From a virus, in the UHGV virus genome UHGV-0119008: a DNA stretch of 12,477 nucleotides. One strand, 5' to 3'. Made by a program: the position numbers. This document shows positions 6,001 to 9,000 of the stretch, piece after piece. Numbering within the stretch: position 1 is the first letter of the stretch; every line of letters starts with the position of its first letter.

Positions 6001-9000
6001 CAGTAAGAGTAATCACCTAACCAATCATACTGATTGCTTATGTGTTAACTCTCTCTAACTCTTAATTACCCTCCTACATTTAATAACTCTGTTATTCTCT
6101 GTAGTTGTGTAATTACTCGAAGAGAGAGCGGCTAAAGCTCAATTACACTCTGCTTTCCTCGTGTAATTTCACTAAGCCTCAATACAATTTCACTTCCTAC
6201 ATTCTGTAGTCGTGTAATTGTTTTCGGTGGAAAAGCCAGAGGCGACACCGAAAGAGAATTCTGATCTTATTAATCTTATCTATCTTAGTTAATCTTCTTA
6301 CTTATCTTACTTACTTTATCTACTTTATTATTAATAATAGCTTTATAAGCTCTCTGTGTAGCTCTCTGACGCAAGAAACAGCATTCAGGAAGGGAATCAC
6401 CTTAGAAAAGGTGTTCTTTGCGTCATAATGTGTTTTATGAAGGATTCAGAGGTGTTTCATAACAGGAATGTATAGAGAATACTTTAGGTAATTAAAAATA
6501 AGGGGTCTAAATGCTTCTCTAACAGCATTAAGCAGGGTAGGGAATGGAAACGCATTGCCTACACATAATAAACTCACTACAGGGCTTTACAGGGCGTTTT
6601 ATAAAGTGACTCTCTGTTTTATATCTACAATCACCTTTTCATATACCTAACAAATACAAAATAAGCCCCTTAAATAAGCCTCTGGCGAGCTAAACAGACA
6701 TTACATAAGAGAATGTATTGCTTTTATCAAAATCTCGTTAGAACGCGTTTTAGAGCGTTTTAGCGGATAATGAAGAATAGCACTACACAGAAGAGCACGA
6801 ATTGCTAAGACAAATTATAACATGCTGAAAAAGATCGATTTTTTCGAAAAGGGTATTGACAAATGTTTCTTTATATGTAATAATAGGTATTAGAGGGACA
6901 GAAAAACATTCTTCTCTAAATAATCAAAATCAATGCACTTTGAAGCCGTCAGGCTTGCAAGGTGTTTTATTTCTTTTAACTGAATAAGGAGTTTTTTATG
7001 AAATGGTTTACACCGGAGCACGTCGTAAAGGCATTTAAAAAAGGTGAGCTTACACGCCACCAAATAGTAATGAATCGTAATATGGCAAGGAGTCGAGGTT
7101 ATCCAGAGCGAGCAGCTTGCTTCAATGAAGCACTCAAGATTATTGATGAACTAAGAAAAAATGAAAAAGAATCTGAAACAGAGTAAAGAAGAGAAGGAGA
7201 AAACTATGAGCGAAGCTACAGAAAAGAAAAGACAACCACGCACTTGCTTTCATATTCCTGATGAAGTATTTCAGGTGTTGTTTAAAGAAGCCAGAAGTAA
7301 ACGTATCACTGTTACAGATTACATTCTTGATATGTTGAAAAGAGAGGCTGAAACACTCTCAAATAAAAGCAAGTGATTTTTATCACCATAGTAGCGCCGT
7401 AGAGCGTGATTACATCAAGGAGATTTTTAATGATTAATGAAGAACAATTTGTAAAAGTTCCTATGTGGATTCTAAAAATAAGCCAAGTAAACGGGCATAA
7501 ATTTACAGATAGTGCTAAAAACCTTTACTGCTATCTGAAAGGGTTTGATCGTGCATTTCCCTCTTACGCTAAGATAGGCGATGTTTTTGGCATAACACCA
7601 AGAGCAGCAGAGGAAAGGGTTAAGAAATTGCTCGAAATGGGGTTAATTATAAAAGATGCACGACCAGGAAGTTCTAATGTCTATCAAGTGGTAGATATTC
7701 CACAAGAAGAAGCTAGACAAGAAGCCAAGACACAACAAGAAGCTACTGTTAAAGCTGTTCCTGATCAGCTTCCCCCTACGGAAGATAATAAACAGCCTTC
7801 TTTTGATGTTCTTGATGATTGGGATGCGCCTTTGCCGTGGGAGACGGAAGAAACACCTGTTTCATCAAGTGAAAAGGTAGCTAATGATAATGAGGAGGAT
7901 GTGTTAGAGAATTTTGCCTCTCTTATCATCCAGGAGAAACACAAAAGAACAGGAGGGGCATCATTTATAGAATTTGCAAATTCACTAGCTTGTAGATACG
8001 GGCTAAAACGACCAAATGGTATTGAGGCATATTTTTCTAAGCATTACCCAAATGTATACGAAGACTTTGATATTCCCTTTTAAAAAGTAAGGAGGACTAT
8101 TGATACAGTATTTAATAAAAAGCAAAGTAGACAGAATTCAGTGTAACGACACAGGAAAACGCATCTACGAAACGCTTGCTTACCTCTATAAAGGAAAGCC
8201 AACACCGCTAAAATATAGCGATGTGTTACATCGAGCAGGTTGCTCTGAGTCAGGTTTAAAATTCTGGCTGAAACAGCTATCAAATTTCGGTGTTATTGAA
8301 ATGAAAGAGCTGTCTTTCTCTACATTTAATCTCAAAAGACTAGATAAAGAAATAGAATTCATCTATTCCACTCTCTAAAATCTCTCTATGTAATTAAAAT
8401 ATAAAAGGAAAACATTATTATGATAGTAGCTATGTATTGGTTATTGTTCTTTCTCACGTTAGAAGCATATTTCGGGGTGTTTTCCTTTAAAAGAAAAGGA
8501 AAAGTAAATTATGGCAAAAAGAAAAAACAACGTTGTTAAGAAAATCGGTGATTCAGCTTCTCTTCTAAGTAAACCTAAATCTATTCTAAAACGTAAAGAC
8601 TTTAAAGAGCTAGTTACGCTCACCAAGCATAATAGCGCCCCTGGCGAATGGAAAACAGAGATCATAGAACATTCTCCCTCTGTGCCTTGTGGAGATGAAT
8701 ATATCGCCTTACAAGAAATCTTATCTTCAACACCTGGCGTGTTCTGGAAACCTAAAAAAAGAAAAGAGTATATCGTTGATAGCTCTGATTTACGCAAATA
8801 CCAGATTTTAGGATTTGAAGATTATAATCACTACGTTGGTTATCTCGCCACAAATGGCCTAAATAATTTAGTTCCTGAATTCCAGATTTTAGATAATGCA
8901 GATCACTATGGAGACTTTTAATATGAACAAAAACACGTATGACACAATTTACTCACTAATTAATTATTATGAGGATGATTACCTCCTGCCTTTAAACCGC

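What the first reader, a model, noticed from the sequence alone, without database searches (positions are those of the whole stretch)
6856..8083. Compact replication cassette: promoter, small ORF, CopG-like RHH, RepA_N-like wHTH initiator
The gene order of an RHH copy-control-like protein directly upstream of a winged-helix initiator matches the CopG-Rep architecture of small plasmids and the replication modules of some phage satellites. No helicase or primase is present in the window, which would imply reliance on host or helper replication machinery.
Basis: partly seen in the sequence, partly recalled or inferred. Interest (0 to 1): 0.45.

Follow-up and report, generated by a model that had tools for sequence, protein, structure and literature searches.

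The report
Phage-satellite RepA-like initiator cassette
This is the early operon of an E. coli phage satellite, and its main product looks like an origin-binding replication initiator whose swappable DNA-binding head has been copied by lytic phages onto a nuclease; a 2023 paper already predicted this system, so it is a known but untested kind.

Summary
The promoter and the ORFs are real and sit at the stated coordinates. The window is a roughly 12-kb capsid-encoding satellite island at tRNA-Thr in E. coli.

The 217-aa protein has three parts:
- an N-terminal winged helix whose model best matches DnaD-NTD, PLE RepA-NTD (4RO3) and pSK41 RepA;
- a disordered acidic linker;
- an orphan four-helix C-terminal domain ending in DFDIPF, five of six residues identical to the SSB C-terminal tip DDDIPF.

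The N-terminal domain is a cassette with five types. It is exchanged at fixed breakpoints (7437/7717/7788). Types A, B, D and E are 90-98% identical in DNA to accessory genes of four Stephanstirmvirinae phages, where they are fused to a T5orf172/MUG113 (GIY-YIG superfamily) domain. This is the ICP1 Odn / PLE RepA pattern.

Barth et al. 2023 (PMC10448857) already reported these phage "odn homologs" and 224 putative satellites with modular RepA, so the central reading is known but untested.

The RHH call is plausible but unproven. The CopG-Rep analogy is superficial. No Pfam RepA_N hit and no iterons were found, and no cis DNA co-varies with the cassette.

Additions here:
- the SSB-tip mimic;
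- satellites matching the phages' second domain;
- a leader terminator hairpin;
- Enterobacter relatives.

The parts
6856..6884 (+). Sigma-70 promoter of the early operon: -35 TTGACA, 17-nt spacer, -10 AATAAT with an upstream TG.
   Evidence: 11 of 12 positions, best site in 3500-9700. Conserved in E. coli relatives and in Enterobacter.
6935..6978 (+). Leader hairpin (6935-6965, 13 bp, GUCA loop) plus a U-run (6966-6978). It looks like an intrinsic terminator or attenuator between the promoter and the first gene.
   Evidence: Fold: whole 111-nt leader MFE -26.1 kcal/mol, z -2.65. Alignment; 100% of cells paired, 2 compensatory pairs (U-A to C-G, G-C to A-U), 2 G-U pairs, and slid controls pair only 26-51%. 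Termination is inferred.
6998..7186 (+). 62-aa basic protein, first gene of the operon, function unknown.
   Evidence: AAGGAG ribosome-binding site. Annotated in RefSeq. 46% identical to the Enterobacter 61-aa protein. No significant family hit.
7206..7376 (+). 56-aa protein, possibly ribbon-helix-helix. It is homologous to the small gene that travels with the phage nuclease gene.
   Evidence: 43% identical to phage muut_153 / inny_185 (E 1e-12). 68% identical to the Enterobacter 55-aa protein. RHH evidence is weak: PHROG Arc-like 0.013, hhalign to Arc in the expected register with P 0.012, nothing in Pfam.
7430..8083 (+). 217-aa RepA-like protein: N-terminal winged helix, acidic disordered linker, small helical C-terminal domain.
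   Evidence: Called RepA of putative E. coli satellites in PMC10448857.
7437..7788 (+). Exchangeable cassette encoding the N-terminal domain (type A here) and part of the linker. Breakpoints are 7437 on the left and 7717 or 7788 on the right. It is 90-96% identical to genes of phages Mt1B1_P17 and BI-EHEC.
   Evidence: Breakpoints. Phage matches. Five types.
7503..7540 (.). Semi-palindrome around an A-tract inside the type-A cassette (TTACAGATAGTGCTAAAAACCTTTACTGCTATCTGAAA). This is a weak lead for a binding site.
Evidence: Two of the three substitutions shared by both A-type phage copies (7535, 7539) fall in its right arm.
7886..8080 (+). C-terminal four-helix domain (residues 153-217), specific to this satellite family.
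8063..8080 (+). C-terminal tip DFDIPF, five of six residues identical to the SSB C-terminal hexapeptide DDDIPF. Proposed handle for recruiting SSB-binding replication proteins.
   Evidence: D212, F213, D214, P216 and F217 are invariant in 18 family members. Divergent members end in DDFEIPF and STIPF. The tip is unstructured in the models. SSB-Ct motif and its DnaG interaction: PMC5872125. Function is inferred.
8100..8378 (+). 92-aa small winged-helix-like protein (TTG start), last gene of the cassette. It is constant across cassette types.
   Evidence: Annotated in RefSeq. 39% identical to the Enterobacter 93-aa protein. Weak similarity to the winged helix of the 217-aa family (hhalign P 0.005; BLASTP E 0.12).

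Best explanation
The cassette is the early (replication and regulation) operon of a capsid-encoding phage satellite integrated at tRNA-Thr.

A strong sigma-70 promoter fires into a leader that carries a terminator-like hairpin. Read-through would express four small proteins.

The 217-aa protein is most likely the satellite's origin-binding initiator, of the same functional type as PLE RepA and the RepA_N plasmid initiators. Its proposed parts work as follows:
- The N-terminal winged helix recognises a specific DNA site.
- An acidic flexible linker follows.
- A family-specific C-terminal domain, ending in an SSB-like tip (DFDIPF), recruits replication proteins that the satellite does not encode. 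These could be host SSB-interacting proteins such as PriA, DnaG or the chi subunit, and/or helper-phage enzymes.

The N-terminal domain is an exchangeable specificity cassette. Some Stephanstirmvirinae phages have captured these cassettes, sometimes together with the small upstream gene. They fused them to a T5orf172/MUG113 nuclease domain, presumably to cut the satellite at the initiator's binding site, as ICP1 Odn does to PLE. Cassette swapping in the satellite would then be the escape route.

Shown here: the anatomy, the fold class, the cassette breakpoints, the phage homologies and the accessory status of the phage gene.

Inferred: DNA binding at an origin, replisome recruitment, nuclease targeting and termination in the leader.
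For: Fold and architecture
- The model has a winged helix at residues 10-90 (pLDDT 70-86), a disordered segment at 99-153 and a helical C-terminal domain.
- Domain-linker-domain with a lineage-specific C-terminal domain is the pSK41 Rep and PLE RepA layout.

Sequence
- PHROG 270 'replication initiation protein' scores 5e-11 and O-like families 1e-7. The other cassette types give the same families.

Context
- No other candidate replication gene turned up among the island's ORFs, which otherwise include capsid, tape-measure-like, baseplate-like and integrase genes.

Cassette behaviour
- There are five N-terminal types on a constant C-terminal domain.
- A 99.8% identical element differs only in 7437-7788.
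- The same kind of swap is documented for plasmid pPR9. There a phage PF13730 head replaced the RepA_N head plus the intragenic origin, while the C-terminal domain and upstream control region were kept.

Phage side
- Phage counterparts match at 90-98% DNA identity for types A, B, D and E.
- The phage gene is accessory. It is in 6 of 50,697 records, although 107 records match some part of the 4-kb locus. It is a precise 1,210-bp insertion relative to phage Nernie.
- Its C-terminus matches MUG113 (25 bits for the isolated domain, cut-off 22.3) and T5orf172. It aligns to the ICP1 Odn nuclease domain, including the residues equivalent to R148 and catalytic E180.
- Odn is shown experimentally to use a RepA-like head to cut PLE origin iterons.

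Independent agreement
- A published bioinformatic analysis reaches the same reading.

SSB-like tip
-.
Against: - No Pfam RepA_N hit, and HTH_36 is below its cut-off. A profile search of PDB sequences returns only generic winged-helix regulators.
- No iteron array lies inside any cassette.
- No non-coding DNA co-varies with cassette type. There are 13 differences in 7.4 kb upstream and 31 in 4.7 kb downstream. In PLE, the RepA head and the origin co-vary.
- If the site lies inside the cassette, the phage copies would carry their own target.
- The C-terminal domain has no informative structural neighbour.
- DnaA boxes are not enriched.
- There are no experimental data on replication, induction or helper identity for this satellite family.
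Confidence: 0.6

Rival explanations
1. The 217-aa protein is a helper-directed DNA-binding regulator. On this reading the satellite borrowed the DNA-binding head of a phage homing-endonuclease-like gene, so that it can bind helper-phage DNA and tune or block helper functions, as PLE CapR does. It would not act on a satellite origin.
For: - The heads are 90-98% identical to phage genes.
- No satellite DNA co-varies with head type.
- The phage partner domain is of homing-endonuclease type.
- Satellite domestication of T5orf172 HEG DNA-binding domains is described for CapR (PMC8096241 listed; discussed in PMC10448857).
Against: - The gene is core in the satellites, including Enterobacter relatives with a diverged head (64% to muut). 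It is sporadic in phages. This points to transfer from satellite to phage.
- The commonest satellite type, C, has no phage counterpart.
- The fold class and PHROG hits are those of initiators.
- A homing-endonuclease target would lie in phages that lack the gene, which gives no obvious reason for a satellite core gene.
Confidence: 0.15
2. The 217-aa protein is an ordinary transcription factor of the satellite, for example an activator of the capsid operon or a repressor, as the database names suggest. The 56-aa protein would be a co-regulator, and replication would be driven entirely by helper proteins acting on satellite DNA.
For: - RefSeq names are 'transcriptional regulator' or 'helix-turn-helix domain-containing protein'.
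- Sequence-profile hits in the PDB are MarR/AsnC/TubR-type winged helices.
- LexA is among the top fold matches.
- A second strong promoter at 9291-9319 precedes the morphogenesis genes.
Against: - A regulator whose DNA-binding domain can be swapped between about 25%-identical types without any change in its operators is hard to explain.
- Generic names are automatic annotations.
- This reading does not explain why phages fuse the same head to a nuclease domain.
- It does not explain the SSB-like tip.
Confidence: 0.12
3. The N-terminal domain works mainly as an oligomerisation module, as in DnaD. The satellite protein and the phage nuclease carrying the same head would form mixed oligomers. 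Type matching would then reflect protein-protein recognition, either poisoning of the initiator by the phage protein or neutralisation of the nuclease by the satellite protein, rather than shared DNA specificity.
For: - DnaD-NTD does not bind DNA, and RepA_N heads also oligomerise.
- This would explain the absence of co-varying DNA.
- The type C head is not basic (pI 6.4).
Against: - Heads A, B, D and E are basic (pI 9.1-9.7).
- In the one tested precedent, the shared head confers DNA specificity for iterons.
- In GIY-YIG homing enzymes the non-catalytic domain is a DNA-binding module.
Confidence: 0.08

Closest known systems
[quoted passage not shown] 2023, NAR Genom Bioinform, PMC10448857)
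   Same: This is the same element family.
- It is tRNA-adjacent and carries integrase, major capsid, tape-measure-like and baseplate-like genes.
- RepA has a modular N-terminal domain matched by the phage genes.
- The window's type A head matches Mt1B1_P17.
   Different: Observations made here that I did not find in the passages of the paper I read:
- Satellites (type E) match the phages' second N-terminal domain at 97.7% DNA identity. The paper states that no counterpart was detected.
- A fourth phage, BI-EHEC.
- The SSB-like C-terminal tip.
- The small upstream gene is part of the transferred unit.
- The leader hairpin.
- The absence of co-varying cis DNA.
- Enterobacter relatives at another integration site.
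Everything remains untested experimentally.
PLE RepA and its origin in Vibrio cholerae, and the ICP1 origin-directed nuclease Odn (PMC7145576, PMC8263062)
   Same: - The satellite of a lytic phage has a winged-helix initiator and no helicase or primase.
- The N-terminal DNA-binding domain is followed by an orphan C-terminal domain.
- The head is modular and shuffled between lineages.
- The phage fuses a copy of the head to a T5orf172 nuclease domain.
   Different: - There is no detectable close sequence homology (hhalign to the Odn head P 0.002).
- Here the phage and satellite heads are 90-98% identical in DNA, against 42% protein identity for Odn and PLE1 RepA.
- The coliphage genes carry two heads in tandem.
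- The PLE origin is a mapped non-coding iteron array that co-varies with the head. No such array or co-variation was found here.
- This satellite encodes its own capsid protein.
RepA_N plasmid initiators (pSK41 Rep) and the chimeric pPR9 initiator (review PMC5703833)
   Same: - The layout is three-part: head, dispensable linker, lineage-specific C-terminal domain that binds a host replication protein (DnaG).
- In pPR9 the head was replaced by a phage PF13730-type head, while the C-terminal domain and upstream control were kept at 97-99%. The window versus NZ_OZ547117 shows the same pattern.
   Different: - Those are Gram-positive theta plasmids with Rep boxes inside the rep gene. No repeats were found inside this gene.
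- HMMER gives no RepA_N hit.
- The C-terminal domain is unrelated.
DnaD N-terminal domain (primosome protein of Firmicutes)
   Different: - DnaD-NTD is an oligomerisation scaffold that does not bind DNA.
- No DnaD C-terminal domain is present.
- Sequence identity is 13-20%.

Membership tests
Pfam RepA_N (PF06970) | Sequence match to the family HMM at or above its cut-off | tested here: not met
   No RepA_N hit for the 217-aa protein at E<=1, nor for the phage homologues at E<=10. PMC10448857 reports RepA_N for the phage proteins by HHsearch. I could not repeat that against the RepA_N profile.
RepA_N-type initiators (structural and functional class) | N-terminal winged helix of the RepA_N / DnaD-NTD fold | tested here: met
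RepA_N-type initiators (structural and functional class) | Head, flexible linker and lineage-specific C-terminal domain | tested here: met
   Disordered segment at 99-153 and a helical C-terminal domain. The C-terminal domain is confined to this family. Layout as described.
RepA_N-type initiators (structural and functional class) | Cognate iterons (Rep boxes) bound by the head, inside or next to the gene | tested here: inconclusive
   No repeat arrays in five cassette types. There is one semi-palindrome at 7503-7540. No co-varying DNA outside the gene.
RepA_N-type initiators (structural and functional class) | Required for replication of the element | not testable with these tools
   Needs deletion and copy-number measurement during infection.
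Pfam HTH_36 (PF13730) | HMM score at or above the gathering cut-off (25 bits) | tested here: not met
   Type A scores 20.0 bits, E 6e-4. Type B and some type C relatives, and the phage proteins, do pass.
Ribbon-helix-helix regulators (CopG/Arc/MetJ) | Beta-strand plus two helices, dimeric, with a match to an RHH family profile | tested here: inconclusive
   PHROG 582 Arc-like E 0.013. Nothing in Pfam. PDB profile: antitoxin 7e4j at 0.25. hhalign to Arc aligns the expected strand-helix register with P 0.012 and probability 3.5%; hhalign to CopG is out of register. The positional equivalent in type E satellites hits FitA-like RHH at 0.22 and AvtR at 0.38.
CopG-Rep module of pMV158-type plasmids | Rolling-circle Rep (HUH nuclease) downstream of CopG | tested here: not met
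   No Rep_1, Rep_2 or Rep_trans hit, and no other nuclease-family hit, for any cassette protein. The HUH nature of that Rep is from my own knowledge.
Lambda O-like initiators | Match to Phage_rep_O and an origin inside the gene | tested here: inconclusive
   PHROG O-like families score 1e-7 to 6e-6. Pfam Phage_rep_O appears only for the phage second head, at 0.011. No intragenic repeats.
E. coli satellites of Barth et al. 2023 | RepA head homologous in DNA to the phage RepA_N-T5orf172 genes, but without a T5orf172 domain | tested here: met
   90.5% identity to Mt1B1_P17 and 95.7% to BI-EHEC. No nuclease domain in the 217-aa protein.
E. coli satellites of Barth et al. 2023 | tRNA-adjacent island with integrase, major capsid, tape-measure and baseplate genes, and no terminase or protease | tested here: met
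   No terminase or protease hit among the window ORFs scanned.
cfPICI | Terminase small subunit, prohead protease, alpA, head-tail adaptors, Pri-Rep | tested here: not met
   None found among the window ORFs that were scanned. PMC10448857 makes the same statement.
SSB C-terminal tip (SSB-Ct) mimic | Acidic, unstructured C-terminus ending in D-D-D-I-P-F or a close variant | tested here: met
   The protein ends in ...YEDFDIPF. D212, F213, D214, P216 and F217 are invariant. The tip has low pLDDT. Motif from PMC5872125.
SSB C-terminal tip (SSB-Ct) mimic | Binds SSB-interacting proteins | not testable with these tools
   Needs peptide binding assays.

The most novel reading that the evidence does not exclude
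The satellite initiator recruits the host replication machinery through a mimic of the SSB C-terminal tip. The DFDIPF end of the orphan C-terminal domain would dock onto SSB-binding pockets of PriA, DnaG or the clamp-loader chi subunit, so an origin-bound protein would stand in for SSB-coated DNA. That would be a concrete answer to how helicase-less RepA_N-like initiators start replication.

In addition, the origin would lie inside the exchangeable cassette, and the coliphage nucleases would be double-headed weapons, each head aimed at a different satellite replicon type: A, B or D, plus E.
Probability: 0.3. Interest if true: 0.65.

Novelty: already known. Interest (0 to 1): 0.4.

Why it matters
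The ICP1-PLE conflict is the only experimentally worked-out case of a phage turning a satellite's origin-binding domain into a nuclease. This window belongs to the E. coli counterpart, which Barth et al. 2023 predicted and nobody has yet tested.

E. coli is much easier to work with genetically, and the candidate helpers (phi92-like and phAPEC8-like phages) are candidates for phage therapy. Satellites that block them, and phage genes that defeat the satellites, therefore matter in practice.

The details added here make the system more testable:
- a defined promoter and leader hairpin;
- exact cassette breakpoints;
- a near-isogenic pair that differs only in the head;
- satellites matching the phages' second head;
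- a C-terminal SSB-tip mimic, which suggests which host proteins to test for recruitment.

Tried and rejected
- Iterons in the 'upstream repeat region'. The GTGTAAT copies (10 found, 1.8 expected) are arms of hairpins in a conserved structured element with compensatory changes. They are unchanged between cassette types. I rejected them as type-specific iterons.
- Iterons inside the cassettes. k-mer and repeat scans of five types gave nothing above shuffled controls, except ACAAGAAGC x3 in one linker variant, which is shared by types A and B and absent from phage Mt1B1_P17.
- DnaA boxes are not enriched.
- Rfam and tRNA scans of the window found nothing.
- The phage gene as the phage's own core initiator was my working idea until. 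I rejected it because the gene is in only 4 phages and is a precise insertion relative to close relatives.
- Episomal form: the 10.8-kb contigs have no terminal overlap.
- Literature searches for satellites of Stephanstirmvirinae by name found nothing. The relevant paper surfaced only through the T5orf172 term.
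Full report
**What the window is.** The window matches E. coli chromosomes. One matches at 99.6% over 97% of its length, and many match at about 95% over the right-hand 70%. In the simplest relatives the element starts inside the 3' end of tRNA-Thr, next to proA (window 3654 onward). It then runs through about 3.3 kb of almost ORF-free AT-rich DNA. After that comes one plus-strand gene string: proteins of 62, 56, 217, 92, 136, 121, 70 and 120 aa, a 342-aa lambda-E-type major capsid protein, a 67-aa protein, a 609-aa tape-measure-like protein and a Dit/baseplate-like protein. It ends with a tyrosine integrase on the other strand. Window 56-3653 is other island cargo, and the window is bounded by IS2 ends. 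No terminase, protease, helicase or primase was found among the scanned ORFs. This is the gene set of a phage satellite.

The best sigma-70 site in 3500-9700 is at 6856-6884 (11 of 12 positions, with TG), and it is conserved in Enterobacter relatives. The three ORFs have good ribosome-binding sites. RefSeq annotates them. They keep their order in Enterobacter, with 46% and 68% identity for the two small products. The 43-aa TTG ORF at 6856-6987 is not a gene.

**A leader hairpin sits between the promoter and the first gene.** The hairpin has 13 pairs (6935-6965) and is followed by a U-run. It is paired in all six aligned sequences. Two pairs changed on both sides between E. coli and Enterobacter. 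Two G-U pairs place it on the plus-strand RNA. I read it as a terminator or attenuator, which is an inference. A fourth gene (8100-8378, 92 aa, small winged-helix-like) completes the cassette.

**Anatomy of the 217-aa protein.**
- HMMER gives only HTH_36 below its cut-off and no RepA_N hit.
- PHROGs gives 'replication initiation protein' at 5e-11 and O-like families.
- The AlphaFold model shows a winged helix at 10-90 (pLDDT 70-86), a disordered acidic stretch at 99-153 and a four-helix domain.
- 4RO3 is the N-terminal domain of PLE RepA, the initiator of the Vibrio satellite (PMC7145576).
- That domain occurs in only seven representatives among 1.84 billion proteins.
- It has no tblastn hit in the phage collection.
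- Its last six residues, DFDIPF, are invariant or nearly so in the family. They resemble the SSB C-terminal hexapeptide DDDIPF, which docks DnaG and other partners (PMC5872125). More divergent members end in DDFEIPF and STIPF.

**The N-terminal domain is a cassette.** Among 558 homologues, nearly all from E. coli, a constant C-terminal half carries five unrelated-looking heads, which I call types A to E. The breakpoints are sharp:
- 7437 on the left, 8 nt into the gene;
- 7717 or 7788 on the right, in the linker;
- for types D and E, 7224 or 7204 on the left, which includes the small upstream gene.

The chromosome that is 99.8% identical to the window carries type C in place of type A. Otherwise it differs at 13 positions in 7.4 kb upstream and 31 in 4.7 kb downstream.

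**The same heads occur in lytic phages.**
- Type A is 90.5% and 95.7% identical in DNA to genes of Phapecoctavirus Mt1B1_P17 and BI-EHEC.
- Type B is 96.3% identical to Justusliebigvirus muut.
- Type D, together with its small upstream gene, is 97.6% identical to inny.
- Type E is 97.7% identical to the second head of the muut and inny genes, and also matches that of Mt1B1_P17.
- Type C, the commonest in the hit list, has no phage counterpart.

**The phage proteins are chimeric and accessory.** They have two heads in tandem plus a C-terminal domain. That domain matches MUG113 (25 bits when isolated, cut-off 22.3) and T5orf172. It also matches the C-terminal parts of annotated homing endonucleases of T5-like and jumbo phages. 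The gene is accessory: six of 50,697 records hold it, while 107 records match some part of the 4-kb locus. In muut, the small gene and the nuclease gene together form a precise 1,210-bp insertion relative to phage Nernie, with junctions at an AAGGAG motif. The phage domain aligns with the T5orf172 domain of ICP1 Gp88 (Odn), including the positions of R148 and the catalytic E180.

**This has been published.** Barth, Nguyen and Seed showed that Odn uses a RepA-like head to cut PLE origin iterons, and that PLEs escape by swapping the head and origin (PMC8263062). A 2023 paper from the same field (PMC10448857) reports the RepA_N-T5orf172 genes of Inny, Muut and Mt1B1_P17 as odn homologues. It lists 224 putative E. 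coli satellites with capsid, decoration, tape-measure, baseplate and integrase genes, and it notes the modular RepA head mirrored by the phages.

**What I add.**
- Type E satellites match the phages' second head. The paper says no counterpart was detected.
- A fourth phage, BI-EHEC, carries the gene.
- The small upstream gene is part of the transferred unit.
- The C-terminus ends in an SSB-like tip.
- The leader carries a terminator-like hairpin.
- Relatives exist in Enterobacter at a different integration site.
- No cis DNA co-varies with the cassette.

**Where is the origin?** I could not find it.
- The GTGTAAT copies upstream are arms of hairpins in a roughly 250-nt element. That element is conserved between E. 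coli and Enterobacter, with six compensated pairs. It does not vary with head type.
- No cassette contains a repeat array.
- In RepA_N plasmids the Rep boxes lie inside the rep gene. In pPR9 the head plus origin was replaced by a phage PF13730 head, while the rest stayed 97-99% identical (PMC5703833). This matches the swap pattern seen here and makes an intragenic site plausible.
- The only candidate is one semi-palindrome around an A-tract at 7503-7540. Two of the three substitutions shared by both A-type phage copies fall in its right arm. This is post hoc and rests on one lineage.

**The 56-aa protein.** It is 43% identical to the small phage gene and has the strand-helix-helix pattern in Arc register. 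However, every statistical test is weak. The CopG-Rep comparison fails on the Rep side.

**Verdict.**
- Best explanation (0.6): the 217-aa protein is the satellite's RepA-like origin-binding initiator, with an exchangeable specificity head and a C-terminal recruiting domain, inside an operon gated by a leader hairpin.
- Rivals: a helper-directed CapR-like binder (0.15), an ordinary regulator (0.12), and an oligomerisation-based interaction with the phage nuclease (0.08).
- Novelty: already known as a prediction.
- Interest is moderate, mainly because of the SSB-tip lead and the near-isogenic head-swap pair, which make the system directly testable.

Noticed in passing
window 5990-6250: A non-coding element of about 250 nt is conserved at about 70% between E. 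coli and Enterobacter satellites. It has conserved stems, loops of variable length and 6 pairs changed on both sides. The GTGTAAT 'repeats' are its hairpin arms. It could be a structured RNA, or a DNA hairpin site for packaging or priming. Rfam finds nothing.
   Followed up: partly
window 4484-6331: Several different short repeat families lie in the ORF-poor region: GGGTATTTAA x3.7 (4598-4635), ATAAATAGCC x2.7 (4724-4750), TTACACAG x5 all on the plus strand (4903-5685) and CTTATCTTACTTA x3.9 (6275-6325). None correlates with head type in the loci compared.
   Followed up: partly
window 4781-4854: A stretch of about 70 nt is 83-96% identical to 'hypothetical protein' regions of other large lytic phages (Escherichia phages Antha and VivaForever, Klebsiella phage phi1_175008). 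This is a second short segment shared between satellite and phage.
   Followed up: no
window 9291-9319 and 5336-5357: A second near-consensus promoter (TTGACA, 17 nt, TAATAT, with TG) lies ahead of the morphogenesis genes. Its upstream 22 nt resemble a sequence ending in TTGACA at 5336-5357.
   Followed up: no
L016 7877-8065 and L017 7729-7947: In type E satellites the small upstream gene is replaced by an unrelated ORF beginning MNINFDSATYNALLNRAKAEGKSIPKLVNELL, which has a clearer RHH-like pattern. In type D satellites the small gene product is identical over its 55 residues to phage muut_153.
   Followed up: partly
L006/L007 7000-7560, L017 5097-5648: Some satellites carry a serine resolvase gene in place of window 4854-5242. 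The D-type island in L017 sits at a different chromosomal site.
   Followed up: no
window 1-56, 12425-12477 and 56-3653: IS2 ends bound the window, and the right one interrupts the tape-measure-like gene. The left 3.6 kb (PerC-family regulator, pRiA4b ORF-3 family protein and others) is cargo of another island lying between tRNA-Thr and the satellite in this strain.
   Followed up: partly
L010-L012 (Enterobacter, between yciO and rluB): Related satellites have the same gene order, but a B-like head (64% to muut), a diverged C-terminal domain that still ends in IPF, and a different integrase and integration site.
   Followed up: partly
contig statistics for P0072: In 633 of 1,078 assembly blocks the type C gene lies on a contig of 10-20 kb, about the size of the island. 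This may only reflect repeats at its borders. The two 10.8-kb contigs checked have no terminal overlap.
   Followed up: partly
L008 406-1533 (phage muut): An AAA+ ATPase with weak similarity to clamp-loader and DnaC-like helicase-loader families lies about 2.5 kb from the phage nuclease gene. Its relevance is unknown.
   Followed up: no
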